From the IMG/VR virus record IMGVR_UViG_2563366798_000003, positions 1 to 51,413 of that record: a DNA stretch of 51,413 bases. One strand, written 5' to 3'. The notes beneath the pieces are model-generated. The model was given only the letters and a program-made list of their open reading frames with translations, searched no databases and was not told the DNA's origin. Positions 5,080-49,488 of this stretch are shown in pieces (position 1 is the first letter of the stretch; each line of letters begins with the position of its first letter). A program made the translations under genes and the position numbers. Source of the DNA: a virus (Duplodnaviria > Heunggongvirae > Uroviricota > Caudoviricetes).

Positions 5080-5286
5080 TTAGTGATTCAGGCCGTTGCC
5101 GCGTCCGTCGAGAAAAACTTCCACGAGCAAATCACGGGTATAAGTGCGCTCGATGCCGCGATGCAGATAAAGCCGTCCGCGTAAATTAGCTGATGCAGTC
5201 CAGGTACCATCTTTGTGTTTGACCAGCATTCCTGGCATGACCGCACCGCGATTAACGGTCTGCGTTCCGTAATGTTGATGAACCAT
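5080..5286 (-). CDS. hypothetical protein (68 aa), first well-supported gene downstream of the pL-like region
   Basis: ATG preceded by AGGAG at optimal spacing; position corresponds to the lambda kil/cIII/N early-left block, but no similarity recognised. Confidence 0.45.
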   Translation of the reverse strand: MVHQHYGTQTVNRGAVMPGMLVKHKDGTWTASANLRGRLYLHRGIERTYTRDLLVEVFLDGRGNGLNH

Positions 5287-5762: not shown

Positions 5763-6716
5763 TTATTCGAATGGAAGATCTATTTGCCTTTGAGGATTCA
5801 ACTGTTTTTTTACATGCTCAATTTCGAATATGGTTTTTATGGCATCTCCGATCATATATTGAGTTACTTTTAAATCTACAAGTAACATATCACCTTTAGA
5901 AAAATTTAAGGTGTTGTTATCAATATCGCTGATGAATTTCTGGTCTTTTATTTCAGCCAAAAAGCTACTGGCACCATCAGAAAACCGCCACCGGCTTCCT
6001 TCATTGAAGGAAATATTTTTAATTTGAAGGGCTTTCTCTACTGTGTACTCTGAAATTATTGATTCTGCTGGTAGATTGACTTTGAAATAATGTGCTTCTT
6101 GCTTGTTGATCGTCATGAATGTCAAACCATCATCGACAGTAGAGGCAAAGCTGTCAATGCCTTCCTGCTCTAATGGCTTACTTATAACTTCTTGTAATGA
6201 AGAGCGAAGTTTAATATTTTTATAAAGTTCAATAACGTTACTGTCGTAGATCTCGCTTTCGTCATCAACAAAGACTTCGATGTTGCTATCAGGCAAATTG
6301 TGTAATTTTTTTATTTTCCTTGGACCTATCCATTTTATCAGTTGAATTAGGCCTTTGCATATTTTTTCTTTAGAACCAGGACAGAGTCCAATAAAAGCAA
6401 TCAAATTCGCAGCGGCTGTTGCTGAATCGCCGGATAAAAAATCAACAGCCTGTTTGAACCAAGATGTAGATGAGGCAACCAGATCTATTCCAAATGAGCC
6501 AGCTTTAAATGATGCATTGACTTTTACAGAAACAACAGTCTTGTTTCCGTAGAGAGTTTTACCGGCTTCCTCTAATGCATCTGATAGTGATAGAAGGGCA
6601 GGAGCAAGGTCTCGCACGTTCATTTCATGCGTTTCCAGTGCCGGACCGTCGTATACTATCCTGAACTTCATATCATTGGTTTCCGAATTGTTGCCCGCAT
6701 CCATTATGGCATTCAC
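5763..6716 (-). CDS. hypothetical protein (317 aa) in the lysogenic rex slot between cI and pL
   Basis: Long AT-rich ORF on the cI strand, directly downstream of cI and followed by a terminator; no recognisable domain; start ambiguous (ATG at 6716 or 6704). Confidence 0.75.
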   Translation of the reverse strand: MNAIMDAGNNSETNDMKFRIVYDGPALETHEMNVRDLAPALLSLSDALEEAGKTLYGNKTVVSVKVNASFKAGSFGIDLVASSTSWFKQAVDFLSGDSATAAANLIAFIGLCPGSKEKICKGLIQLIKWIGPRKIKKLHNLPDSNIEVFVDDESEIYDSNVIELYKNIKLRSSLQEVISKPLEQEGIDSFASTVDDGLTFMTINKQEAHYFKVNLPAESIISEYTVEKALQIKNISFNEGSRWRFSDGASSFLAEIKDQKFISDIDNNTLNFSKGDMLLVDLKVTQYMIGDAIKTIFEIEHVKKQLNPQRQIDLPFE

Positions 6717-10741: not shown

Positions 10742-12289
10742 CTACTTGTCTTTTTTAATATGTTCAATCTCATCATTAAGACATTTATCTATTTTTTTTA
10801 TTAACACATTAATTTCTTCGGTGTTTTGGAGTTGAGTTGTCTTAGAAACAAAAACTCGAATAAAGAATTTAACATAGTGATAGGGTTGAAGTACATCGTT
10901 ATACTTACATAAATCATTTATTGTATACTTGCCGCCTGTTTCTTTTTTTATTATTTTAGCTTGACTTGTATCGATATCTTTAAAGTTATCTTCAATCTGA
11001 AAATCAAGAACCCATTCATCTCCTTTTAAATTATCCTCAATGATTTTGTTGATTTTCTTAGATATATTTTGTTTATATTCTTTGTATCTGTTGTCGGAAA
11101 TGTTAACATTAGAAAACGTGTGTTTTTTTTCATATATTTTTTTCCAAACATTTCTATCAACAATATCTTGAATTATAGCTTGAGAATTTTTATCTAATGT
11201 GTTTTTAAGAGTGTTTTCTAAAAACGTTTTGTCTGGGTTTTCACGATAAAAGTGTTTGATGGACTCAATGAGAGTGTTTTTAGATTTTAAAGAGACAACA
11301 TCATCAGTTTTTTTTCTAGAACACGCTTTGTTAAGCATCGCAGATAGTGCACGATTGGTCTTATGAAAATAAACTTGACTATAAAGCCCACTTCTTGCAT
11401 TGGCAAATTCTAGTATTGAATCCATACCACTTTCTTTATATGCCAGGTAAACACTATTTTCAACTTTCACAGGAATAAATGACATTAATAATCGTCCATA
11501 ATCATAAATCCCATATTTAACGCCGGAGAAGTAGCTATCTCTAAGTAGGTAGTCCATTCTGTCCGCATCTATAGGTGAAGATGATATGATTGAACATAAT
11601 AAAGGATATACATTTACTCCCTCAATGTTATTTTTAAAATCATATCTTTTATCAACAATTTTTATAATGCTTTCTGGATTAATAGCCGCTATGTTTTCTT
11701 TATAGACATCGTCGTCATTTGATTTATCTTGGGCTTCATTTTTTAATTCTTCAATAATTTCTTTAATAAAAATACATGATACTTGTTCGTGGGTTAACTT
11801 GTCATTATCACTTAAAGATATAATCTTATCGTATTGTTTATTTCCTTCAGTTTTGCATTTTTCTTTGAAATCTTTTACGGATATTGCAAAACTATCGAAT
11901 TGGTGGGCAAGTGGGCCATGCCCAACATCGTGTAACAATGCTGCAATACGTAACTCCTGTATAAGACTTGAAGGCATTTTTTTTATATCTAAATATAGAT
12001 CAATGCCCATATTTTTTCGGTCATAAATTAATGCATTCAAATTTATATTTTTCAAAATCTCATACGATAAATGCATTACACCGACAGAGTGTTCAAAGCG
12101 AGAGTGCATTGCAGAAGGAAATACTTTATATAGAAACGTGTTCTGCCTGATATCTCGTAGTCGTTGGAATAAAGGATGGTCAATTATCTTTTTTTCTAGC
12201 TTAGTTATTCGAATCACTCCATGTATGGGATCTAAAAACTTCCCCAGAAGTAAGTCTTCAAAGTTCTCAAGTTTGTTTTTGTTTGTCAT
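10742..12289 (-). CDS. HD-domain phosphohydrolase, Dgt/SAMHD1-like putative dNTP triphosphohydrolase
   Basis: 515 aa; motifs H-x-x-H (HSRFEHSVGVMH), HD (LLHDVGHGPLAH) and D-x-D-R-x-D-Y-x-x-R-D (DADRMDYLLRDSYFSG); AAGGAAAG SD; strongly AT-rich, opposite strand to flanking phage genes. Confidence 0.85.
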   Translation of the reverse strand: MTNKNKLENFEDLLLGKFLDPIHGVIRITKLEKKIIDHPLFQRLRDIRQNTFLYKVFPSAMHSRFEHSVGVMHLSYEILKNINLNALIYDRKNMGIDLYLDIKKMPSSLIQELRIAALLHDVGHGPLAHQFDSFAISVKDFKEKCKTEGNKQYDKIISLSDNDKLTHEQVSCIFIKEIIEELKNEAQDKSNDDDVYKENIAAINPESIIKIVDKRYDFKNNIEGVNVYPLLCSIISSSPIDADRMDYLLRDSYFSGVKYGIYDYGRLLMSFIPVKVENSVYLAYKESGMDSILEFANARSGLYSQVYFHKTNRALSAMLNKACSRKKTDDVVSLKSKNTLIESIKHFYRENPDKTFLENTLKNTLDKNSQAIIQDIVDRNVWKKIYEKKHTFSNVNISDNRYKEYKQNISKKINKIIEDNLKGDEWVLDFQIEDNFKDIDTSQAKIIKKETGGKYTINDLCKYNDVLQPYHYVKFFIRVFVSKTTQLQNTEEINVLIKKIDKCLNDEIEHIKKDK

Positions 12290-12648: not shown

Positions 12649-14151
12649 TTAAATTGCATCTGCAAACTCTGTGATTTTTCGCTCAAGTATGATTGATGAG
12701 TTGCTGTTGTCGATTTTTTTATTTTCATGATTACGAATAGCCAATGACTCATTAAAGTCTTTTGCGACTGCTGTCTCAATAAATTCAATTTCTGAATCAG
12801 AGTGTTTTTTAACAGCTTCTTTGATCTCATCCAGAGTAACATAGAAAAACTCTTTTCTACGATTTACAAGATTGACTCTCTTTTTATCGAAGACATCATG
12901 TAGTTTTTTTTCTAATGATGGAGCGTCCTCCGAATAAATCATGGCATGCACATCAAAAATAAAAGGAACAGATGCATCACCAAGCTCATTTACACGGTCT
13001 TGTGGATCAAGACGTCGTGTCATGCCTATTTTATAAACATTCTCCCCAAAAGAACCTATGTTCGAAATAATATAAACATGACCTTGTTTGGTTTGTTGTG
13101 CCATGGATAATGCTCTTTGATGCTTTGATTCAGCCTGCGACAAACTCTGTTCTAGTTCGGCAATGCGATTTTCGAGGCGCTGCTTCATGTCACCAGTAAC
13201 TTTTTCCATTTCCTTTCTTGCAGCTTCAATTGCTTTTTTATAACGGCGCTCTTCTGCCTCTGCGTCTTGCATGGCCTTTTCTATTTCTCGTTGTGCACGC
13301 TCCTCCTCTCTCATTTGTGCCCTTATTTCTGCCTGTTCTTCTTTTTCTTTCTGTTTTTGCTCACGATATTCATGGGTAAGCCACAACTCCTCAAGTTTTT
13401 TATTAAGGTATTTAGTATTTATATATATGTGATTTTGCTCGTTTAGTTTATTTATGGCCTCAAATGCCTTTGTGATGCGTTCTTCCATTTTAGTGATATT
13501 TTTCCACGTGCAATTACTAATTGCAGCATCACATTCATTATTAAATGCTCTAGTAGTTAGCCTAATATTTCTGTCTGTCATTTTTTTACCCTCTGCTCGA
13601 GAGCCTTCAACAGTCCATTGGGTTGTGCAATATACTGCACCAGAGTGGGTTTTATCCCGCAGCATTAATTTCTGTTCATCCCTGATGGATTTTATTTTGT
13701 TTTTAAATTGCTCTGAATCTTCAAAATTAAAATGAGGTTCGTAAAATCCTAGTTCGGCTAGTTCAACATCTTCTGAATAAATAGAAATTTGCTTTACTAG
13801 CTTATCATATATTTCTTTCTTCTCTTTATAAGTTCTTCTTAGTTCTTGGATTTGTTTATTGATACCATCCATTTTTTCAATGGTGTTTGTTAGTTCATTA
13901 TTGGCATTTTCTTTTACTTTTTGGGACTCTTCTTTTATAATGGAGCATTCTTGCTCTGTTTTCTCAATAAGCTTCTTACATTCCTCTTCCACATTAAAAT
14001 AATCTGCAAAGCGAGATTTGTATTCTTCATTTTTTTGATTGCTATCACTTAATTCTAATTGTATTTTTTTGATGCGTTTGATTGCAGCTATATATAGAAC
14101 AAGAACAACCAATAAAAATATGATTGCAAGTAATAGTGGAGTTTGAGTCAT
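12649..14151 (-). CDS. membrane-anchored coiled-coil protein with C-terminal T5orf172/GIY-YIG-like domain
   Basis: 500 aa; N-terminal hydrophobic helix (LLLAIIFLLVVLVLYIAAI), long charged coiled-coil segments, C-terminal GHVYIISN...VYKIGMT...VPFIFDVHAMIY motif; AAGGA SD. Confidence 0.8.
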   Translation of the reverse strand: MTQTPLLLAIIFLLVVLVLYIAAIKRIKKIQLELSDSNQKNEEYKSRFADYFNVEEECKKLIEKTEQECSIIKEESQKVKENANNELTNTIEKMDGINKQIQELRRTYKEKKEIYDKLVKQISIYSEDVELAELGFYEPHFNFEDSEQFKNKIKSIRDEQKLMLRDKTHSGAVYCTTQWTVEGSRAEGKKMTDRNIRLTTRAFNNECDAAISNCTWKNITKMEERITKAFEAINKLNEQNHIYINTKYLNKKLEELWLTHEYREQKQKEKEEQAEIRAQMREEERAQREIEKAMQDAEAEERRYKKAIEAARKEMEKVTGDMKQRLENRIAELEQSLSQAESKHQRALSMAQQTKQGHVYIISNIGSFGENVYKIGMTRRLDPQDRVNELGDASVPFIFDVHAMIYSEDAPSLEKKLHDVFDKKRVNLVNRRKEFFYVTLDEIKEAVKKHSDSEIEFIETAVAKDFNESLAIRNHENKKIDNSNSSIILERKITEFADAI

Positions 14152-15486: not shown

Positions 15487-15845
15487 ATACTTACCACATC
15501 ACACTACCCTGGCCGCCGAGCAATAACCGCTACTACCGCCATAATCGCGGGCGCACACACATCAGCGCAGAAGGGCAGGCATACCGCGATAACGTCACCC
15601 GAATCATTAAAAACGCAATGCTGGATATCGGCCTGGCTATGCCAGTGAAAATCCGTATTGAGTGCCACATGCCGGATCGCCGTCGCCGTGACCTGGATAA
15701 TCTGCAAAAAGCCGCTTTTGACGCACTCACCAAAGCAGGTTTCTGGCTGGATGATGCTCAGGTCGTTGATTACCGCGTTGTGAAGATGCCTGTTACCAAA
15801 GGTGGGAGGCTGGAACTGACCATCACCGAAATGGGGAATGAATGA
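15483..15845 (+). CDS. rusA: Holliday junction resolvase RusA
   Basis: 120 aa matching RusA ([36 protein letters not shown]...); overlaps ybcO stop. Confidence 0.9.
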
Positions 15846-15982
15846 TGTTTGAGTTTTATATGGCAGAACTTCTTCGCCACCGCTGGGGGCGTCTGCGCTT
15901 ATATCGTTTCCCCGGTTCTGTTTTGACCGATTACCGAATACTGAAGAATTACGCCAAAACCCTGACAGGAGCAGGAGTATGA
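15842..15982 (+). CDS. ylcG: small protein YlcG
   Basis: 46-aa ORF ([46 protein letters not shown]) overlapping the rusA stop (ATGA). Confidence 0.6.
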
Positions 15983-16067
15983 AGTCAGAGATAACAATCA
16001 ACTAATACTGTTTTGTTGATTTTTGCTTGTAATTGGCGTTCTGGTCTGATTTTTGTGGAGTAAGTTG

Positions 16068-16445
16068 ATGCGTGATATTCAGATGGTTCTTGAGCGTTGG
16101 GGAGCGTGGGCGGCTAATAATCATGAAGATGTGACCTGGTCGTCCATTGCCGCCGGTTTTAAGGGATTAATTCCTTCAAAAGTAAAATCTCGCCCACAAT
16201 GTTGTGACGATGACGCGATGATCATTTGCGGGTGCATGGCCCGTCTGAAAAAGAACAACAGCGATTTGCATGATTTATTGGTGGACTATTATGTCGGCGG
16301 CATGACTTTTATGGCGCTTGCACGTAAGCATGGGCGATCTGATTGTTGGGTTGGCAGGATGCTCCAGAAAGCTGAGGGCGTAGTGGAGGGTATGCTGATG
16401 GTGTTGGATCTCCGATTGGAGATGGATGCTGATTGTTCGAAATAA
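16068..16445 (+). CDS. Q: late-gene antiterminator Q (DLP12 QuuD-like)
   Basis: 125 aa from [33 protein letters not shown]..., cysteine cluster [12 protein letters not shown]; position upstream of lysis genes. Confidence 0.8.
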
Positions 16446-16457
16446 TTAAAGGAAAAG

Positions 16458-16486
16458 TTGCTGTCTGATTGTCATTAGTCTAACAT
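16458..16486 (+). promoter_or_regulatory. candidate late promoter pR'
   Basis: TTGCTG (-35) 17-nt spacer TAACAT (-10) immediately downstream of Q and upstream of a terminator hairpin. Confidence 0.3.
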
Positions 16487-16544
16487 TTTAAATGTTGGAA
16501 TCGCAACGTAGTTATTATCATATAACAGCTTGTTTCCTGATTTA

Positions 16545-16573
16545 GCCAGCCTCCCCAAAGGCTGGTTTTTTTC
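16545..16573 (+). terminator. rho-independent terminator (tR'-like)
   Basis: CCAGCC / GGCTGG stem with 8-nt loop followed by TTTTTTT. Confidence 0.55.
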
Positions 16574-16600
16574 TAATAAGTATCATTTCGGGTAGGGATT

Positions 16601-17125
16601 TTATTGTTTAACCCATAATAATTCATTGACATTGAATCCCAACTTTTGAGCGGTTCGCACATAGTCTGCTTTTACTTTATCTGGAATAGTTGAGGTCCTT
16701 GCCAGAATCCATAGGTATTCTCTGTTCGGACCACTGACAAGAGCATACTTATACTCATCATCCAGTTTGATTACATTATAGCCACCATAGAAGGGGCCAA
16801 AAAACGAAACCTTCAACGCTGCAGTTTTAGTATCTCCAGTAAAGTATGCTTTACCTTCGCTCTCGCTCCATTTATTTTTCGTTGGATCGTATCCACGGTT
16901 AAGTACACGAATCCCTCCGTCGTTCCGTTTTCCATAAGTAGCGCTGACCTGTTCCAGACCACGTTCGAACCGGTTCTCGAGGCGAGCTATTTCATACCAT
17001 TTTCCGAGGTAGCGGTTGGCGTCAAAATTTGTAATCGGCTGCACACCTTTAGGTGGTGTCGGGGTCTTACATGCTATAAGAGTGAAAGAGAGCGCAATGC
17101 CAGTCAACACAGGCCATAACTTCAT
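16601..17125 (-). CDS. lipocalin-family outer-membrane lipoprotein (Blc-like)
   Basis: 174 aa with lipoprotein signal (LSFTLIAC) and lipocalin motif (GKWYEIARLENRFE); moron position between Q and lysis genes. Confidence 0.8.
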   Translation of the reverse strand: MKLWPVLTGIALSFTLIACKTPTPPKGVQPITNFDANRYLGKWYEIARLENRFERGLEQVSATYGKRNDGGIRVLNRGYDPTKNKWSESEGKAYFTGDTKTAALKVSFFGPFYGGYNVIKLDDEYKYALVSGPNREYLWILARTSTIPDKVKADYVRTAQKLGFNVNELLWVKQ

Positions 17126-17317
17126 AATAAATCCTGTACTTTTGATAGTTGAGAGTAAGTATGAAAGATAGATGATTACGACCGATCACTTAAAGAACTT
17201 TCATACTATATTAGGAATAGTCCATAACAGAAAAATTGTCAGTGATGACGCCAGAAAGGCAATTTATTCCGTGCACTACACAGTTTATGTGTTAATGAAT
17301 TAGTCAAGGGGGAGGAT

Positions 17318-18277
17318 ATGATAAAAAAACCTGTGATTGGAATCAGCGGTTGTTTGGCCGGTTCTGCTGTTCGTTTTGATGGTGGTCACAAAAGAGCTGA
17401 CTTTTTAATGGACAAATTAGTGGAATGGGTAACATTCAGACCAGTATGTCCGGAAATGGCTATAGGGCTGCCAGTTCCGCGTCCTGCTCTACGTCTTGTG
17501 CGCTCGACGCAAGGAAATATACGGATGTGTTTCAGCCACGACCAGAATGAGGATGTGACAGAGAGAATGACAGAGTTTAGTCGTTCTTATATGGACAAAT
17601 TAAAGGATGTATCGGGGTTTGTGGTTTGTGCTAAATCTCCCAGCTGTGGCATGGAGCGCGTGCGTGTCTATGATGAAAATGGTAATCGAGGTCGTAAAGA
17701 TGGAGTGGGACTATTTACGAGCACTTTGATGGAAAAGTTTTCCTGGCTACCGGTTGAAGAGGATGGGCGATTACATGATCCAGTGCTTCGTGAGAATTTT
17801 GTTGAAAGAGTTTTTGCTTTGCATGAGCTCAATCACCTTTACAAGGAGAAATTATCAAGAAGAGAGTTATTGGCTTTTCATAGTCGTTATAAGCTTCAGT
17901 TGTTGGCGCATAGTCAGACAGGCTATAAAGATATGGGACCATTTGTGGCTGCAATACACGAGTGGGCGGATCTTGAATCATACTTTGAGGTGTATCGTGA
18001 TAAGCTGATGGCGATTCTCAGAAAACCTGCATCACGTAAAAATCACACGAATGTGCTGATGCATATACAGGGGTATTTTAGTAACTACTTAAGTACACGC
18101 CAGCGTAAAGAGTTGAGCGAGGTTATACTTAACTATCGTTCTGGCACATTACCTCTTCTTGCGCCGTTGACTCTGCTGAAGCATTATCTGGGTGAGTATC
18201 CTAATGATTACTTGCTTACACAGAATTACTTCGATCCCTATCCGGACGAACTGGCTCTAAGACTGATGGTAAATTAA
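17318..18277 (+). CDS. YbgA-like protein (DUF523 + DUF1722 architecture)
   Basis: 319 aa; N-terminus GISGCLAGSAVRFDGGHKR typical of the DUF523 family; GGAGG SD. Confidence 0.65.
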   Translation: MIKKPVIGISGCLAGSAVRFDGGHKRADFLMDKLVEWVTFRPVCPEMAIGLPVPRPALRLVRSTQGNIRMCFSHDQNEDVTERMTEFSRSYMDKLKDVSGFVVCAKSPSCGMERVRVYDENGNRGRKDGVGLFTSTLMEKFSWLPVEEDGRLHDPVLRENFVERVFALHELNHLYKEKLSRRELLAFHSRYKLQLLAHSQTGYKDMGPFVAAIHEWADLESYFEVYRDKLMAILRKPASRKNHTNVLMHIQGYFSNYLSTRQRKELSEVILNYRSGTLPLLAPLTLLKHYLGEYPNDYLLTQNYFDPYPDELALRLMVN

Positions 18278-18619
18278 TTGTATGCGATATCATCCAAAAG
18301 GATGAGTTCCTGCATACAGGATATTTACAATCGTAAAAACTACACTATGATACCCAGAGTGTCAGTTTGTATAAAAACTCTGTTTACGCTGAAGAAACCA
18401 TTGAGATGCAACTTAAATTTGGTAAACATGCCAGTCAAAATATATGATATTATGATTCCACGCAGCTATATATAATATAACAGATTGGTTTAATAATTTG
18501 TCTTTGTGAGTTAAATACATAATTTTATACTTGTGATGCAATGAGATTTTCCTTATTGTTGAACTGGCGAATATTGATTTTCCACCTATACTTACCTGGT
18601 GTAACCCCAATGATATCAG

Positions 18620-19360
18620 GTGGATAATATGCCATACATATGTTCTATCATTTTGGTGTTGAACTCGTTTGATGTCCGAATTGGTAAAGAAGATATTTTG
18701 TTTAAAAAAGGAAGTGCTGTTCTCATTGATTACAATTTAAAAGATTTTTTTTCATCAAATATAGATCATGTAATGATCGTAGATGTTGAAGAGAAAACAG
18801 TTAATGATTTCTTTAAAAGCAACACACTCTCACCTTTTTCTGTAAGAAGGTTTTATCCGGCATACTTGATGGTGGAATGTGAAGATTTTTCATTGTTAAA
18901 GAACTTGATTGCATGCTTGAATTGTGATGGCAGAACTGTGGATTTTGTTAGAAATCAAATATCACTTGCATGTCTTGCTATCTTATCTTCAGAGAAAATA
19001 GTGCAAAGTTTTTTATTTGGATGTCTTAATAGTTTAGGAAGTAAAGTTAAGGCTATTATTCACACGGATATATCTGCAACATGGAGACTTTGTGATATAT
19101 CTTCAAGACTGTATCTGAGTGAAAGTCTGTTAAAAAGAAAATTAAAGCACGAAGGCTTATCATTTAGTAAATTAATTCTTGAAGAGCGAATGGTGATGGC
19201 GGAAAGGTTATTAAGCTACAATTTATATTCTGTTGGAAAAGTTGCTGAGATATGCGGTTATGAAAACACGTCATATTTTGTAAGTGTTTTCAGAAGATAT
19301 TTTGGTGTTCCTCCCCATCAATATTCATCAAGATTTTTTTTAGAAAAAGACATGATGTAA
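18620..19360 (+). CDS. AraC-family transcriptional regulator
   Basis: 246 aa, AT-rich; C-terminal AraC HTH (VGKVAEICGYENTSYFVSVFRRYFGVPPHQY). Confidence 0.8.
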   Translation: MDNMPYICSIILVLNSFDVRIGKEDILFKKGSAVLIDYNLKDFFSSNIDHVMIVDVEEKTVNDFFKSNTLSPFSVRRFYPAYLMVECEDFSLLKNLIACLNCDGRTVDFVRNQISLACLAILSSEKIVQSFLFGCLNSLGSKVKAIIHTDISATWRLCDISSRLYLSESLLKRKLKHEGLSFSKLILEERMVMAERLLSYNLYSVGKVAEICGYENTSYFVSVFRRYFGVPPHQYSSRFFLEKDMM

Positions 19361-19421
19361 CGTGATGCGTTTTAATGATTTTGTAATTTTCGTATTTGAT
19401 AATTGTATGATGCTTTCAGCT

Positions 19422-19453
19422 ACGCCAGAATAATCGCTGGCGTTTTTCTTTTT
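19422..19453 (+). terminator. rho-independent terminator downstream of the AraC-family gene
   Basis: ACGCCAG / CTGGCGT stem followed by TTTTTCTTTTT. Confidence 0.5.
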
Positions 19454-19548
19454 GAATAGATGTTCAAGCCTTACGCTAATGTAACTTCTATACCTTTCCT
19501 CTTCGTTCCGAACCGTGTACACCATCCGTTATTTGCGGAGGTGAGGCT

Positions 19549-19764
19549 ATGAAATCCATGGATAAGTTAACAACGGGCATTGCCTACGGCACCTCCGCAG
19601 GCAGTGCTGGCTACTGGTTTTTACAGCTGCTCGATAAAGTCACGCCCTCACAGTGGGCAGCAATAGGTGTGCTGGGTAGCCTGGTATTTGGCCTGCTGAC
19701 GTACCTGACAAACCTTTATTTCAAGATTAAAGAAGATAAGCGCAAGGCTGCGAGAGGTGAATAA
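19549..19764 (+). CDS. S: class II holin / pinholin (phage 21 S-like)
   Basis: 71 aa with dual-start motif MKSM, two TM segments, charged C-terminus ([13 protein letters not shown]). Confidence 0.85.
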
Positions 19765-20261
19765 TGCCTCCATCATTACGAAAAGCCGTTGCTGCTGCTA
19801 TTGGTGGCGGAGCAATTGCTATAGCATCAGTGTTAATCACTGGCCCAAGTGGTAACGATGGTCTGGAAGGTGTCAGCTACATACCATACAAAGATATTGT
19901 TGGTGTATGGACTGTATGTCACGGGCATACAGGAAAAGACATCATGCTCGGTAAAACGTATACCAAAGCAGAATGCAAAGCCCTCCTGAATAAAGACCTT
20001 GCCACGGTCGCCAGACAAATTAACCCGTACATAAAAGTTGATATACCGGAAACAACGCGCGGCGCTCTTTACTCGTTCGTTTACAACGTGGGCGCTGGCA
20101 ATTTCAGAACATCGACGCTTCTTCGCAAAATAAACCAGGGCGATATCAAAGGCGCATGTGATCAGCTACGTCGCTGGACATATGCTGGCGGTAAGCAATG
20201 GAAAGGTCTCATGACTCGTCGTGAGATTGAGCGTGAAATCTGTTTGTGGGGTCAGCAATGA
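19764..20261 (+). CDS. R: SAR endolysin (lysozyme, R21-like)
   Basis: 165 aa; N-terminal signal-anchor-release segment ([18 protein letters not shown]) followed by lysozyme domain. Confidence 0.9.
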
Positions 20262-20716
20262 ACAGAGTAACCGCGATTATCTCCGCTCTGGTTATCTGCA
20301 TCATCGTCTGCCTGTCATTGGCTGTTAATCATTACCGTGATAACGCAATCGCCTACAAAGAGCAGCGCGATAACAAGGCCAGTGAACTGGAGAAGGCGAA
20401 CGCCACCATCGCTGACATGCGGAAGCGTCAACGTGATGTAGCAGAACTCGACGCAAGATACACAAAGGAGCTTGCTGATGCTAACGCGACTATCGAAAGT
20501 CTCCGTGCTGATGTTTCTGCTGGGCGTAAGCGCCTGCAAGTCGCCGCCACCTGTGCAAAGTCAACGACCGGAGCCAGCGGCATGGGCGATGGAGAAAGCC
20601 CAGGACTTACAGCAGATGCTGAACTCAATTATTACCGTCTCCGAAGTGGAATCGACAAGATAACCGCGCAGGTTAACTACCTGCAGGAATACATCAGGAC
20701 GCAATGCCTGAAATAA
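20258..20716 (+). CDS. Rz: i-spanin Rz
   Basis: 152 aa from [19 protein letters not shown] (N-terminal TM) with coiled-coil periplasmic domain; overlaps R stop. Confidence 0.8.
20472..20663 (+). CDS. Rz1: o-spanin Rz1 (embedded in Rz, +1 frame)
   Basis: 63-aa ORF with lipobox LLGVSAC and proline-rich mature region, fully nested within Rz. Confidence 0.7.
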
Positions 20717-47535: not shown

Positions 47536-48285
47536 ATGGATTATGTTTGCTCCGTAGTTTTCATCTGTCAATCATTTGATTTAATTATAAACAGGAGAGT
47601 TATCTCGTTCAAAAAAAATTCATTGTTTATTGTAAGCGACAAAATTAGAAGAGAGTTACCAGTATGCCCCTCTAAACTAAGAATTGTTGATATAGATAAG
47701 AAAACATGTTTATCCTTTTTTATCGACGTGAATAATGAGTTGCCTGGCAAATTTACTCTTGATAAGAATGGCTATATTGCTGAAGAGGAACCTCCATTAT
47801 CGCTTGTTTTTTCTCTGTTTGAAGGGATTAAAATAGCAGACTCACACTCCCTTTGGTTAAAAGAAAGACTATGTATATCCTTACTTGCCATGTTCAAAAA
47901 ACGCGAAAGTGTAAATTCATTTATACTAACAAATATAAATACATTTACCTGTAAAATTACTGGAATAATCAGTTTTAATATTGAGCGGCAATGGCATTTA
48001 AAAGATATTGCGGAATTGATTTATACGAGTGAAAGTTTAATAAAAAAAAGATTAAGGGATGAAGAAACGTCATTTACTGAAATATTGAGAGATACTAGGA
48101 TGAGGTATGCAAAAAAACTCATAACTTCAAACTCTTATTCTATCAATGTCGTAGCCCAGAAATGTGGCTATAACAGTACTTCATATTTCATATGTGCATT
48201 TAAAGATTATTATGGTGTCACGCCATCTCATTATTTTGAGAAAATAATCGGCGTCACAGATGGAATAAACAAAACAATTGACTGA
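47536..48285 (+). CDS. appY: AraC-family regulator, AppY-like
   Basis: 249 aa, strongly AT-rich, C-terminal AraC HTH; sequence and position next to ompT match my recollection of E. coli AppY. Confidence 0.75.
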
Positions 48286-48534: not shown

Positions 48535-49488
48535 TTAAAATGTGTACTTAAGACCAGCAGTAGTGATGAAGTTATAGTTTTCTATGCCTGCTCCATTTTT
48601 GCTGTAGTCTGAAGTGTTATTATTGTGATCATAAAGTGAAGTATTACCTTTTTTATTCGTAACCCGATTCCATGCGCCTTCAACATAAACTTTTGCGTTA
48701 GGTGTGACGTAATAACCTGCATTGACTGCAACAGAATAGTAATTTTGGTCTTTGACCTTACTGCGATAAGTGATTCTTTTTCCCGGGTCATAGTGTTCAT
48801 CGTTATCAGATGATTCCACCCAGCCGCTGTATTTAAATGTGCCACCTAGCTCAAAATCTTCATAACGATAACTTCCAGTCAAGCCAATGTAGGGCATTTT
48901 AAAACGTTGTTTGTAGCCGATTGCTCTTTCTCCATTCGGGAAGGAGCCGATATCATCTCTGAATCCCTCCTCAGAACTGTAGATATAGGAACCACCTCTG
49001 GCTGTAAAGCTATAACGGCTTTCCTGATATCCGGCCATGAGTCCCAGGCGGTAATTGGGTTCGTTGAGGAGCCAGCCTTTGATATTCAGATCAAATTCGT
49101 TGGCATAATTGAGTTGTGTATCAGGATGTCTACTTTCATCCGTCCAGGTTCCGGGGTTACTGGAATCCATCCAGTCCTGATCGACCATATTGCCACCTCG
49201 GCTGCCGAGTGTTGTCCAGCCAGCAGCCCCGATAGATATCTGAGGCATCAAATCCCAATTAATTGCACCTTTAATAATTGCAGCGTTATTGAATTTCCAG
49301 TCAAGTTGACTGACTTTTCGGCTTCCTTCTTCGGCTAGATAAACACGCTCTTTTGTTTTTCCGCTCAGAGTTCCAAGACTAATGTCCGCATTTATGTTGT
49401 CAGGAGTAAACGATAAAGTCTCGGTAGAAGCAAAAGAGTTGATCGCAATAGGGGTTGTCAGGACTATTCCCAGAAGTTTCGCCCGCAT
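48535..49488 (-). CDS. ompT: outer membrane protease OmpT (omptin)
   Basis: 317 aa matching E. coli OmpT (MRAKLLGIVLTTPIAI...TAGLKYTF). Confidence 0.95.
   Translation of the reverse strand: MRAKLLGIVLTTPIAINSFASTETLSFTPDNINADISLGTLSGKTKERVYLAEEGSRKVSQLDWKFNNAAIIKGAINWDLMPQISIGAAGWTTLGSRGGNMVDQDWMDSSNPGTWTDESRHPDTQLNYANEFDLNIKGWLLNEPNYRLGLMAGYQESRYSFTARGGSYIYSSEEGFRDDIGSFPNGERAIGYKQRFKMPYIGLTGSYRYEDFELGGTFKYSGWVESSDNDEHYDPGKRITYRSKVKDQNYYSVAVNAGYYVTPNAKVYVEGAWNRVTNKKGNTSLYDHNNNTSDYSKNGAGIENYNFITTAGLKYTF

What the first reader, a model, noticed from the sequence alone, without database searches (positions are those of the whole stretch)
16458..19453. Three-gene moron cluster between Q and the lysis cassette
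The slot that holds Shiga toxin genes in Stx phages here carries a Blc-like lipocalin lipoprotein (minus strand), a YbgA-like DUF523/DUF1722 protein and an AT-rich AraC-family regulator, bracketed by a promoter-like element plus terminator after Q and another terminator before S. Expression may depend on Q antitermination. The AraC regulator is a candidate prophage-encoded modulator of host acid-resistance or virulence regulons.
Basis: partly seen in the sequence, partly recalled or inferred. Interest (0 to 1): 0.5.

Follow-up and report, generated by a model that had tools for sequence, protein, structure and literature searches.

The report
Prophage cargo genes around late promoter
A common E. 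coli lambda-like prophage carries three intact passenger genes between its late-gene activator Q and its lysis genes (a membrane lipocalin, a tRNA 4-thiouridine eraser and a PatE-like AraC regulator), all of known kinds, but the regulator sits right behind the phage's probable always-on late promoter and so is probably made in the dormant state too.

Summary
Window 16601-19360 carries three intact genes under purifying selection. These are a Blc-type lipocalin lipoprotein on the minus strand, a TudS+DUF1722 protein 93% identical to the tested tRNA 4-thiouridine desulfidase RudS_vir of phage 1H12, and an AT-rich AraC regulator. The regulator is 54% identical to the Sakai Sp1 AraC gene taken here to be PatE, and 40% to the presumed PsrB. 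The module occurs in about 20% of complete E. coli genomes and in plaque-forming phages. blc is already published as a lambda moron.

The "promoter plus terminator after Q" is homologous to the 3' part of the Stx-phage StxS RNA and its terminator tR', and it lacks the rpoS-pairing seed. The homologue of the experimentally mapped Stx-phage late promoter PR' lies at 18324-18351, after blc and rudS and 270 nt before the AraC gene. So blc-rudS sit between Q and PR'. They are a chromosomal gene pair captured from another enterobacterium.

Only the AraC gene is downstream of PR', and it lies ahead of the first strong terminator (19422-19453). It is therefore predicted to be transcribed without Q in lysogens. 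All parts are ordinary members of known kinds. The placement of the regulator is a modestly novel, untested arrangement.

The parts
16068..16445 (+). Q antiterminator gene, 125 aa from the PGAP start (the ORF opens at 16053)
   Evidence: Matches Pfam Phage_antitermQ at 173 bits. It is 81% identical (97/120) to the 144-aa Q of Stx2 phage Min27 and distantly related to Q21 of PDB 6p18. Similarity to other Q alleles stops near 16427.
16468..16575 (+). StxS_S-like segment ending in a tR'-type intrinsic terminator (hairpin 16544-16567, then T7). A weak candidate promoter TTGCTG(16458)-17-TAACAT(16486) precedes it.
   Evidence: A local alignment to Min27 covers StxS_S and the tR' hairpin GCCAGCCTCCCC..GGCTGG+T-run. 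The fold has z = -4.5. The segment is near-invariant between window, 1H12, IdasGreatGrand and strain T2 and in 79 of 80 viral loci. The rpoS seed is not kept: -9.8 kcal/mol against -25.4 for Min27.
16601..17125 (-). blc-like outer-membrane lipocalin lipoprotein gene, 174 aa, with lipobox LIAC and Cys19
   Evidence: Scores 314 bits on NCBIfam Blc, above the 267 cut-off. The closest solved structures are E. coli Blc. It is 59% identical to K-12 Blc, 96% to 1H12 gp65, and 76-82% to a Blc paralogue next to chromosomal rudS in Enterobacter, Leclercia and Citrobacter sedlakii. dN/dS is 0.086.
17126..17317 (.). Divergent blc/rudS intergenic region of 192 bp, expected to hold the genes' own promoters
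   Evidence: It is 97% conserved among window, 1H12 and IdasGreatGrand and does not align with the chromosomal counterparts. Only weak consensus promoter matches were found.
17318..18277 (+). rudS: TudS(DUF523)+DUF1722 fusion, a tRNA 4-thiouridine desulfidase, 319 aa
   Evidence: Matches Pfam PF04463 and PF08349. It is 93% identical to RudS_vir, phage 1H12 gp66, which was tested in PMC11417400. C12, C44, E46, R55, S107, S109 and C110 are all present. dN/dS is 0.106.
18278..18319 (+). Stable hairpin directly after the rudS stop codon, without a T-run
   Evidence: It folds at -21.6 kcal/mol with z = -5.5. The sequence differs in 1H12.
18324..18351 (+). Homologue of the Stx-phage late promoter PR' (TTTACA-16-TATGAT); predicted start near 18358
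   Evidence: It is the best consensus match in the region, 10 of 12. The 16-base core pattern TTTACRATCGTAAAAA occurs once on the + strand of the window, against 0.09 matches expected by chance. It aligns with PR' of Min27 and Sakai Sp5 and with the element upstream of the DLP12 and 4A7 lysis genes. The Sp5 promoter is anchored to the published TSS, tR' and RNase E coordinates. It is an island of identity in a diverged spacer and is present in 80 of 80 viral loci.
18352..18628 (+). AT-rich leader of about 270 nt between PR' and the AraC start; no terminator-like site
   Evidence: G+C is 0.32. It contains ATATAACAGATTGGTTT, which resembles a motif in the StxS_S-like segment; this is read directly from the sequence.
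18629..19360 (+). AraC/XylS regulator of the PatE / Psr / AppY / YdeO-like group, 243 aa
   Evidence: Matches HTH_18. The best NCBIfam model is YdeO at 127 bits, far below the 348 cut-off. It is 54% identical to the presumed PatE, with 72% in the DNA-binding domain, 40% to the CP-933O AraC protein and 31% to AppY. The model (pLDDT 83) matches Rns, CsvR and ToxT over the full length. dN/dS is 0.28.
19422..19453 (+). Intrinsic-terminator-like hairpin plus T-run. It is the first such site after PR' and sits about 100 nt before the holin gene, so it is proposed as the working tR'.
   Evidence: Found by the scan. It is invariant in window, 1H12 and IdasGreatGrand. In 59 of 80 viral loci a match within 3 substitutions was found; most variants lie in the loop. 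It occupies the same position relative to the holin as the DLP12 hairpin. Its folding energy alone is not exceptional, z = -1.3.
19549..20716 (+). Lysis cassette: S21-type holin 19549-19764, endolysin 19764-20261, Rz 20246-20716
   Evidence: The gene order matches 1H12 and DLP12.

Best explanation
The interval between Q and the lysis genes is a composite of two separate cargo insertions placed around the phage's late promoter.

(1) Directly after Q lies a relic of the Stx-phage PR' transcript. It comprises an StxS_S-like segment and a tR'-type terminator.

(2) Next comes a divergent gene pair, blc (-) and rudS (+). The pair was captured whole from the chromosome of a non-E. coli enterobacterium, where the same two genes are neighbours. 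It lies between Q and the late promoter. Its expression must therefore come from its own promoters in the 192-bp spacer. For rudS, read-through of early rightward transcription during lytic growth is a further possible source. RudS removes the sulphur of 4-thiouridine in tRNA, and most E. coli lack this activity. Blc is a second outer-membrane lipocalin.

(3) The late promoter PR' is at 18324-18351. The AT-rich AraC gene with its 270-nt leader has been inserted between PR' and the terminator that precedes the holin gene.

In a lysogen, the constitutive PR' would therefore transcribe the AraC gene and stop at 19422-19453. After induction, Q-modified RNA polymerase would read through that terminator into S, R, Rz and the structural genes.

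By homology with PatE, PsrB and AppY, the regulator most likely activates gadE/hdeA-type acid-resistance promoters. In pathogenic hosts it would then indirectly repress LEE.

Shown here: gene identities, intactness, purifying selection, prevalence, chromosomal origin of blc-rudS, and homology of the two non-coding elements to StxS/tR' and to PR'. Inferred: promoter activity, termination, Q independence of AraC expression, and the regulon.
For: Functional constraint is shown by dN/dS of 0.086, 0.106 and 0.28 against 1H12.

Prevalence: rudS is in 1136 and the AraC region in 1042 of 5426 complete E. coli genomes, and 990 carry at least 80% of 16300-19600. The same gene order occurs in the isolated phages IdasGreatGrand, 1H12 and 2G7a.

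Linkage: in 80 IMG/VR loci, Blc and RudS were found in all 80 and Q in 79. AraC was found in 76, full length in 61. One loss is an IS1-mediated deletion.

Origin: the closest chromosomal RudS proteins are 66-76% identical and lie in Citrobacter, Enterobacter, Leclercia and Kluyvera. In about 40 of 64 such loci a Blc 76-82% identical to the phage Blc lies divergently upstream. In C. sedlakii the gap is 188 bp, against 192 bp here. None of these loci has the AraC gene, Q or a holin.

PR': the window Q is 81% identical to the Min27 Q. The published PR' start, tR' 3' end and RNase E site of Sakai Sp5 fall exactly on TTTACG-16-TATCAT, the GCCAGCC hairpin T-run and GUAUU. The window homologue of the promoter is at 18324-18351 and that of StxS_S/tR' is at 16468-16575. 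DLP12 and 4A7 have the promoter homologue between their porin cargo and the holin gene. The promoter motif is present in 80 of 80 loci.

No terminator-like site lies between 18352 and 19421.

Regulator function by homology rests on the reviews and the AppY paper. The AppY DNA-binding Lys170 position is conserved in the SESLLK motif.
Against: No transcript data exist for this phage, so promoter use, termination efficiency and Q loading are all inferred from homology.

Downstream of about +10 the window PR' region has diverged from the Stx/DLP12 version, and it has lost the +25 to +55 hairpin those phages keep. It could therefore now be an ordinary promoter that Q no longer recognises.

The 19422 hairpin is not unusually stable (z = -1.3), and no match to it was found in 21 of 80 loci.

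The AT-rich leader and gene (31-32% G+C) are the kind of DNA that H-NS silences, which could keep AraC off despite PR'.

Identity to the presumed PatE is only 40% in the N-terminal domain, so signals and even targets may differ.

In the paper RudS_vir had lower tRNA desulfidase activity than other RudS proteins.

psrA itself was not located. The labels PatE and PsrB rest on position in Sp1 and CP-933O, not on locus tags.
Confidence: 0.6

Rival explanations
1. This is the reading of the first stage. PR' lies directly after Q (TTGCTG-17-TAACAT, 16458-16486) with its tR' at 16544-16575. The whole three-gene block lies downstream of it in the stx slot. rudS and the AraC gene are then expressed mainly by Q antitermination after induction.
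For: A promoter-like pair of hexamers with 17-nt spacing stands in front of a strong, conserved terminator right after Q. In lambda, and in the Stx phage Min27 fetched here, PR' is next to Q. [quoted passage not shown]
Against: The hexamers match the consensus at only 7 of 12 positions, and the scan did not list them. The segment aligns with an internal 3' part of StxS_L, not with the Q-loading promoter. The true PR' homologue is at 18324. DLP12 and 4A7, which have the closest Q alleles, have PR' after their cargo and next to the lysis genes.
Confidence: 0.15
2. The genes serve the phage's lytic cycle rather than the lysogen. RudS made during induction strips s4U8 from host tRNA, so that the UV light that induces the prophage does not also cross-link tRNA and stall translation. 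The AraC protein tunes phage or module genes rather than host regulons.
For: RudS overexpression lowers tRNA s4U, and for RudS_KT it shortens the UVA growth delay. rudS is co-oriented with early rightward transcription and the AraC gene is the first gene after PR'. The chromosomal relatives sit next to an MlrA-like MerR regulator, and the paper links such neighbourhoods to light responses.
Against: No MerR regulator or photolyase gene accompanies the phage copy. blc is antisense to all rightward phage transcription. Related viable phages carry other cargo in this interval: a porin gene in 4A7 and stx in Min27. The presumed relatives PatE, PsrB and AppY act on host promoters.
Confidence: 0.15
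3. The block is selectively neutral hitch-hiking DNA. It is kept only because it is linked to one successful Q allele and lysis module, and H-NS silences it.
For: The block is always linked to one Q allele at 97-100% identity. The AraC region is very AT-rich. IS1 and IS3 insertions in the block are frequent. About 15 of 76 AraC copies in viral contigs are partial.
Against: dN/dS is 0.09-0.28 over dS of 0.2-0.34 for all three genes, similar to Q, S and R. Two AraC allele classes both keep full-length reading frames. The catalytic residues of RudS are intact.
Confidence: 0.1

Closest known systems
RudS_vir (gp66 of Escherichia phage 1H12) and the RudS family of tRNA 4-thiouridine desulfidases (Jamontas et al. 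2024, PMC11417400)
   Same: It is 93% identical over all 319 residues. It has the same TudS+DUF1722 fusion, the same three cluster cysteines (12, 44, 110) and the same catalytic Glu, Arg and Ser residues. It sits in the same place in the phage genome, Q - blc - rudS - AraC - holin.
   Different: The window allele itself was not assayed. The paper did not discuss the genomic context. It states that E. coli lacks RudS, whereas about 21% of complete E. coli genomes carry this prophage copy.
blc as a lambda moron (Mathieu et al. 2020, PMC6969025) and chromosomal E. coli Blc
   Same: It is an outer-membrane lipocalin lipoprotein scoring above the NCBIfam Blc cut-off. blc was already listed as a moron in more than half of 19 infant-gut lambda phages, a set that includes 1H12 and 2G7a.
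   Different: It is only 59% identical to the host's own Blc. It is closer, at 76-82%, to a second Blc that neighbours rudS in Enterobacter, Leclercia and C. sedlakii. It was therefore acquired together with rudS. That paper does not mention YbgA or AraC.
Prophage AraC-like regulators PatE, PsrA/PsrB (EHEC) and AppY (DLP12)
   Same: It shows full-length homology, including the N-terminal domain, and has the same size of about 240-250 aa. It is AT-rich and prophage-borne. YdeO and GadX are the best curated models for all of these proteins. The presumed PsrB gene in CP-933O also lies between a Q-like gene and the lysis genes.
   Different: It forms a separate lineage, 54%, 40% and 31% identical respectively. 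Its targets are untested. It lies directly behind the PR' homologue, whereas the presumed patE and appY lie at the far right end after the tail fibre genes. The same prophage also carries appY.
PR' - StxS - tR' unit of Stx phages with the 144-aa Q (Sy et al. 2020, PMC7547250)
   Same: The Q protein is 81% identical. The PR' core TTTAC(R)ATCGTAAAAA...TAT..T is conserved, and so are the StxS_S segment and the tR' hairpin.
   Different: Here the two halves are separated and their order is inverted relative to the transcript. StxS_S/tR' is next to Q, and PR' is 1.8 kb further on. The rpoS-pairing seed is lost. A protein-coding gene, rather than a 258-nt RNA, lies between PR' and the first strong terminator.
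DLP12 and phage 4A7: Q - porin gene (nmpC / ompC-like, minus strand) - PR' - lysis genes
   Same: These phages have the same nin-region genes and Q family (87% nucleotide identity for 4A7). A minus-strand outer-membrane cargo gene lies directly after Q. The PR' homologue lies after the cargo and about 200 bp before an S21-type holin gene.
   Different: The cargo is a porin gene instead of blc-rudS. No gene lies between PR' and the holin gene. The +25 to +55 hairpin after PR' is retained.

Membership tests
RudS (TudS-DUF1722 tRNA 4-thiouridine desulfidase) | N-terminal DUF523/TudS domain fused to a C-terminal DUF1722 domain | tested here: met
   PF04463 covers residues 7-149 (137.9 bits) and PF08349 covers residues 192-309 (138 bits).
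RudS (TudS-DUF1722 tRNA 4-thiouridine desulfidase) | Three cysteines holding the [4Fe-4S] cluster, plus catalytic Glu, Arg and two Ser (RudS_KT C17, C49, C114, E51, R60, S111, S113) | tested here: met
   C12, C44, C110, E46, R55, S107 and S109 are present. The residue list comes from the paper.
RudS (TudS-DUF1722 tRNA 4-thiouridine desulfidase) | Lowers s4U in tRNA | not testable with these tools
   This was shown for the 93%-identical RudS_vir on overexpression, more weakly than for other RudS proteins. It is not shown for this allele or at native expression.
Bacterial lipocalin Blc | Lipocalin_2 fold scoring above the curated Blc subfamily cut-off | tested here: met
   NF007786 scores 314.1 bits against a cut-off of 267, and PF08212 scores 146.5 bits. 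The best solved relatives are E. coli Blc, 3mbt and 1qwd.
Bacterial lipocalin Blc | Lipoprotein signal peptide with a lipobox cysteine | tested here: met
   The sequence reads MKLWPVLTGIALSFTLIAC|KTP, with lipobox LIAC, Cys19 and Lys at +2 (read from the translation).
Bacterial lipocalin Blc | Outer-membrane location and lipid (lysophospholipid or fatty acid) binding | not testable with these tools
AraC/XylS regulators, PatE/Psr/AppY/YdeO-like group | C-terminal double helix-turn-helix domain | tested here: met
   HTH_18 covers residues 161-237 and HTH_AraC is also matched. The C-terminal domain of the model matches AraC-family DNA-binding domains at rmsd 1-2.6 A.
AraC/XylS regulators, PatE/Psr/AppY/YdeO-like group | Full-length homology to the characterised prophage members, N-terminal domain included | tested here: met
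   Identity is 54% over 235 aa to the presumed PatE (Sakai Sp1 ECs_0287), 40% over 236 aa to the CP-933O protein and 31% over 233 aa to AppY. The N-terminal domain is 40%, 28% and 24% identical.
AraC/XylS regulators, PatE/Psr/AppY/YdeO-like group | Orthology to YdeO or GadX (curated equivalog score) | tested here: not met
   YdeO scores 127 bits against a cut-off of 348, and GadX scores 86 against 500. It is a relative, not an orthologue.
AraC/XylS regulators, PatE/Psr/AppY/YdeO-like group | Activates gadE/hdeA-type acid-resistance promoters | not testable with these tools
   This is known for PatE, PsrB and AppY. There are no data for this protein.
Moron (autonomous accessory gene in a phage genome) | Extra DNA lying between genes that are adjacent or differently filled in related phages, with deviating base composition | tested here: met
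   The same Q-to-holin interval holds a porin gene in DLP12 and 4A7 and tRNAs plus stx2 in Min27. G+C is 0.31-0.44 against 0.48.
Moron (autonomous accessory gene in a phage genome) | Own promoter and terminator, with expression in the lysogen | tested here: inconclusive
   Consensus promoter and terminator counts do not exceed shuffles. blc and rudS have only weak candidate promoters. The AraC gene appears to use the phage's PR' rather than a promoter of its own. No expression data were examined.
Late-operon cargo of the stx type (Q-dependent) | Located downstream of both PR' and its terminator tR', co-oriented with late transcription | tested here: not met
   blc and rudS lie upstream of the PR' homologue. 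The AraC gene lies downstream of PR' but upstream of the first terminator-like site.
StxS small RNA | Sequence homology to StxS_S with the tR' hairpin, directly downstream of a Q of the short (144-aa) clade | tested here: met
   The segment 16468-16572 aligns with Min27 5107-5216 and shares the hairpin GCCAGCCTCCCC..GGCTGG. Q is 81% identical. No Rfam family matched.
StxS small RNA | Seed that pairs with the activating region of the rpoS leader | tested here: not met
   The duplex with the rpoS seed at -118 gives -25.4 kcal/mol for Min27 (0.4% of shuffles as good). It gives -9.8 for the window (71% of shuffles) and -8.3 for 1H12.

The most novel reading that the evidence does not exclude
A host-regulon regulator has been inserted into the short, constitutively made read-out of a lambdoid late promoter. 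PR' would drive the AraC gene in every lysogen, and the terminator behind the gene would do the job of tR', so Q is needed only to go beyond it. This would extend to a protein-coding gene the idea that the 'idle' PR' transcript acquires host-directed functions, as shown for the StxS RNA. In about a fifth of E. coli strains, the same block would also supply an orphan StxS-like small RNA with a new seed and a tRNA s4U eraser that the species otherwise lacks.
Probability: 0.3. Interest if true: 0.6.

Novelty: new member of a known kind. Interest (0 to 1): 0.35.

Why it matters
About one in five sequenced E. coli strains carries this block, including the commensal HS and the laboratory strain ATCC 8739.

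- If the AraC protein acts like PatE, PsrB and AppY, it is one more horizontally spread switch on the acid-resistance island. That island shapes survival in the stomach and, in pathogens, type III secretion.
- The rudS copy qualifies a published statement that E. coli has no RudS. It gives a natural system in which to ask what erasing tRNA 4-thiouridine does for a lysogen or for a UV-induced phage.
- The relocated PR' matters for annotating late operons in DLP12-type prophages. There the late promoter is not next to Q, so cargo between Q and PR' is not under Q control.

None of this changes a general principle. It refines known ones.

Tried and rejected
- Rfam at a permissive E-value found nothing meaningful in 15800-20000.
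- No tRNA genes are present in the window.
- PADLOC gave no hit for any of the three proteins, so a defence role has no support.
- PHROGs places all three in families of unknown function.
- I looked for psrA (z1789) in Sakai Sp6 and EDL933 CP-933N and found no AraC gene there. It remains unlocated, and the primary PatE and PsrB papers are not held.
- The blc-rudS spacer does not align with the chromosomal spacers, so no conserved operator could be derived.
- A regulatory link to an MlrA-like MerR regulator was considered, because one lies between blc and rudS in Enterobacter. The phage copy lacks the regulator, so the idea stays open.
- A fatty-acid link between Blc and the Rns/ToxT-like N-terminal domain of the AraC protein was considered. 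The pocket residues were not compared, so this is speculation only.
- Two literature searches for the cluster as such found nothing.

Full report
**What is there.** The window is a complete lambdoid prophage of the DLP12 type, with the integrase gene at the left end and tail fibre genes near 43-46 kb.
- The lipocalin gene is at 16601-17125 on the minus strand. Its product scores above the curated NCBIfam cut-off for Blc (314 against 267 bits). It has a lipoprotein signal ending in LIAC.
- The second gene is at 17318-18277 on the plus strand. It encodes a fusion of the TudS/DUF523 and DUF1722 domains.
- The third gene is at 18629-19360 on the plus strand and encodes an AraC-family protein.
- G+C is 0.44, 0.43 and 0.31 for the three genes, against 0.48 for the window.

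**Are the genes real and alive?** They are.
- The block is 100% identical in E. coli strain T2, where it lies in a prophage next to ybhC.
- At least 80% of 16300-19600 is present in 990 of 5426 complete E. coli genomes. rudS is in 1136 genomes and the AraC region in 1042.
- The same order, Q - blc - rudS - AraC - holin, occurs in the isolated phages IdasGreatGrand, 1H12 and 2G7a.
- In 80 IMG/VR contigs with RudS at 97% identity or more, Blc and RudS were found in all 80 and Q in 79. AraC was found in 76, full length in 61. One loss is an IS1-mediated deletion.
- Against the 1H12 alleles, dN/dS is 0.086 for blc, 0.106 for rudS and 0.28 for the AraC gene, at dS of 0.20-0.34. The phage's own Q, S and R give 0.04-0.11.

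**What the genes are.**

The middle gene is a known enzyme family.
- Jamontas et al. 2024 named TudS-DUF1722 fusions RudS and showed that they remove the sulphur of 4-thiouridine in tRNA.
- One of the proteins they tested, RudS_vir, is gp66 of phage 1H12.
- The window protein is 93% identical to it. It keeps the three cluster cysteines and the catalytic Glu46, Arg55, Ser107 and Ser109.
- In that study RudS_vir lowered tRNA s4U less than other RudS proteins. It gave the shortest lag on 4-thiouracil.
- The paper says E. coli lacks RudS. That is true of K-12, whose YbgA is only the DUF1722 half (49% identical), but not of the roughly 21% of strains with this prophage gene.

blc was already listed as a moron present in more than half of 19 infant-gut lambda phages.

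The AraC protein belongs to a narrow, unnamed family.
- It is 54% identical to Sakai Sp1 ECs_0287. That gene lies in the Sp1 prophage and is followed by an IS remnant, and I take it to be PatE.
- It is 40% identical to the AraC gene of EDL933 CP-933O, presumably PsrB, and 31% to AppY.
- The DNA-binding domain is 72% identical to that of the presumed PatE, while the N-terminal domain is 40% identical.
- A model with pLDDT 83 matches Rns, CsvR and ToxT over the full length.
- PatE, PsrB and AppY all activate gadE/hdeA-type acid-resistance genes. That is the best guess for this protein, but it is untested.

**Where the cargo came from.** A scan of one genome per species found the nearest chromosomal RudS proteins, at 66-76% identity, in Citrobacter, Kluyvera, Enterobacter, Leclercia, Klebsiella and Pectobacterium.
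- In about 40 of the 64 loci, a Blc 76-82% identical to the phage Blc lies divergently upstream of rudS. The host's own Blc is far more distant, at 59%.
- In Citrobacter sedlakii the two genes are 188 bp apart, against 192 bp in the phage.
- In Enterobacter an MlrA-like MerR regulator gene and a transthyretin-like gene lie between them.
- None of these loci has the AraC gene, Q or a holin gene.

So blc-rudS is a chromosomal pair captured as a unit. The much more AT-rich AraC gene arrived separately.

The Q protein is 81% identical to the 144-aa Q of Stx2 phage Min27. For that Q clade, Sy et al. 2020 mapped three features. The PR' start lies 258 nt upstream of the tR' 3' end. RNase E cuts at GU|AUU, position +173. 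The resulting 74-nt StxS RNA activates rpoS.

On the Sakai Sp5 sequence, allowing for a 142-bp shift between record versions, those coordinates fall as follows:
- the start falls 7 nt after TTTACG-16-TATCAT, which overlaps the Q stop codon;
- the 3' end falls on the T-run of the hairpin GCCAGCCTCCCCC..GGCTGG;
- the cleavage site falls on GTATT.

In the window, the segment homologous to StxS_S plus that hairpin is the element right after Q, at 16468-16575. The homologue of the promoter is at 18324-18351, TTTACAATCGTAAAAACTACACTATGAT. That is after rudS and 270 nt before the AraC start codon. Four further observations support this assignment.
- It is the best sigma-70 match in the region.
- It is an island of identity in an otherwise diverged spacer.
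- It is present in 80 of 80 viral loci.
- DLP12 and phage 4A7, which carry a porin gene after Q, have the same promoter between that cargo and the holin gene.

The architecture is therefore: Q - StxS_S/tR' relic - blc - rudS - PR' - leader - AraC - terminator - S R Rz. No terminator-like site lies between 18352 and 19421. The hairpin at 19422-19443 is invariant among the three phages aligned. It occupies the position, relative to the holin gene, of the hairpin that follows PR' in DLP12.

**How it most likely works.** All of this paragraph is inference.
- blc and rudS are outside the late operon and rely on promoters in their 192-bp spacer. rudS may also be reached by early rightward transcription during lytic growth.
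- The AraC gene is the first gene after PR' and lies before the first strong terminator. It should be transcribed in lysogens without Q, as far as H-NS permits on such AT-rich DNA.
- Q would be required only to pass 19422-19453 into the lysis and structural genes.
- The StxS_S-like segment may be made as a short RNA. It has lost the rpoS seed: -9.8 against -25.4 kcal/mol, no better than shuffled sequence.

**Caveats.**
- There are no transcript data.
- The window PR' region diverges from the Stx and DLP12 version after about +10 and lacks their +25 to +55 hairpin.
- The second hairpin is not unusually stable.
- The PatE and PsrB labels rest on position, and psrA was not found.

**Verdict.** Every component belongs to a known kind. 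blc and RudS_vir are already in the literature, and the regulator is an uncharacterised member of the PatE/Psr/AppY group. The placement of the regulator between PR' and its terminator, and of blc-rudS between Q and PR', is a modestly novel and testable arrangement.

Noticed in passing
window 47536-48285 (+) and 48535-49488 (-): The same prophage carries a second AraC regulator at its right end. It is AppY, identical to K-12 AppY at 248 of 249 residues, and an omptin (OmpT) gene follows it as in DLP12. One prophage therefore brings two YdeO/GadX-like regulators that are 31% identical to each other.
   Followed up: yes
window 12649-14151 (-), 10742-12289 (-), 5763-6716 (-): There is AT-rich cargo on the minus strand in the early and nin regions. 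One gene is a PD-Lambda-1 defence gene (PADLOC 657 bits; DUF4041 + T5orf172). A second encodes a 515-aa HD-domain protein. The third matches the candidate defence family PDC-S42 at 287 bits.
   Followed up: partly
window 16468-16575 (+): This is an StxS_S-like segment with the tR' hairpin in a non-Stx prophage. It has a possible promoter of its own at the position where the StxS paper also called a start site. The rpoS seed is not conserved, so if it is a small RNA its targets differ.
   Followed up: partly
L077:5696-5790 (DLP12) and L159:5540-5634 (phage 4A7): The PR' homologue of DLP12-type phages lies between the porin cargo gene (nmpC or ompC-like) and the holin gene, about 3 kb from quuD in K-12, not next to Q. 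A GC-rich hairpin with a T-run follows it, as in Stx phages.
   Followed up: partly
L076:10274-10987 (EDL933 CP-933O): The presumed PsrB gene also sits between a Q-like gene (DUF1133) and the lysis genes, directly before tRNA-Ile and tRNA-Arg, with a PerC/Pch gene after the lysis cassette. No AraC gene was seen in CP-933N or Sakai Sp6, where reviews place psrA (z1789).
   Followed up: partly
L061 and L066 (contigs of a 'Candidatus Nanosynbacter' MAG): Two short contigs binned as Nanosynbacter carry this E. coli prophage block at 93-100% protein identity (Q, blc, rudS, AraC, holin). They are almost certainly mis-binned E. coli DNA.
   Followed up: no
window 18278-19450 and its homologues in other genomes: The rudS-to-AraC stretch is a frequent target of IS1 and IS3-family insertions in other strains. 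In L144 an IS1 has deleted the AraC gene while leaving the PR' motif. E. coli BL21 keeps only a 147-bp remnant of rudS.
   Followed up: partly
window 18278-18319 (+): A very stable hairpin (-21.6 kcal/mol, z = -5.5) lies directly after the rudS stop codon and just before the -35 element of PR'. It has no T-run, and the sequence differs in 1H12. It may end or stabilise the rudS message.
   Followed up: no
L018:4660-5898 (Enterobacter hormaechei chromosome): In Enterobacter-type chromosomes an MlrA-like MerR regulator gene and a transthyretin/HIUase-like gene lie between blc and rudS. The RudS paper links MerR neighbours to light-induced expression. The phage copy lacks both genes.
   Followed up: no
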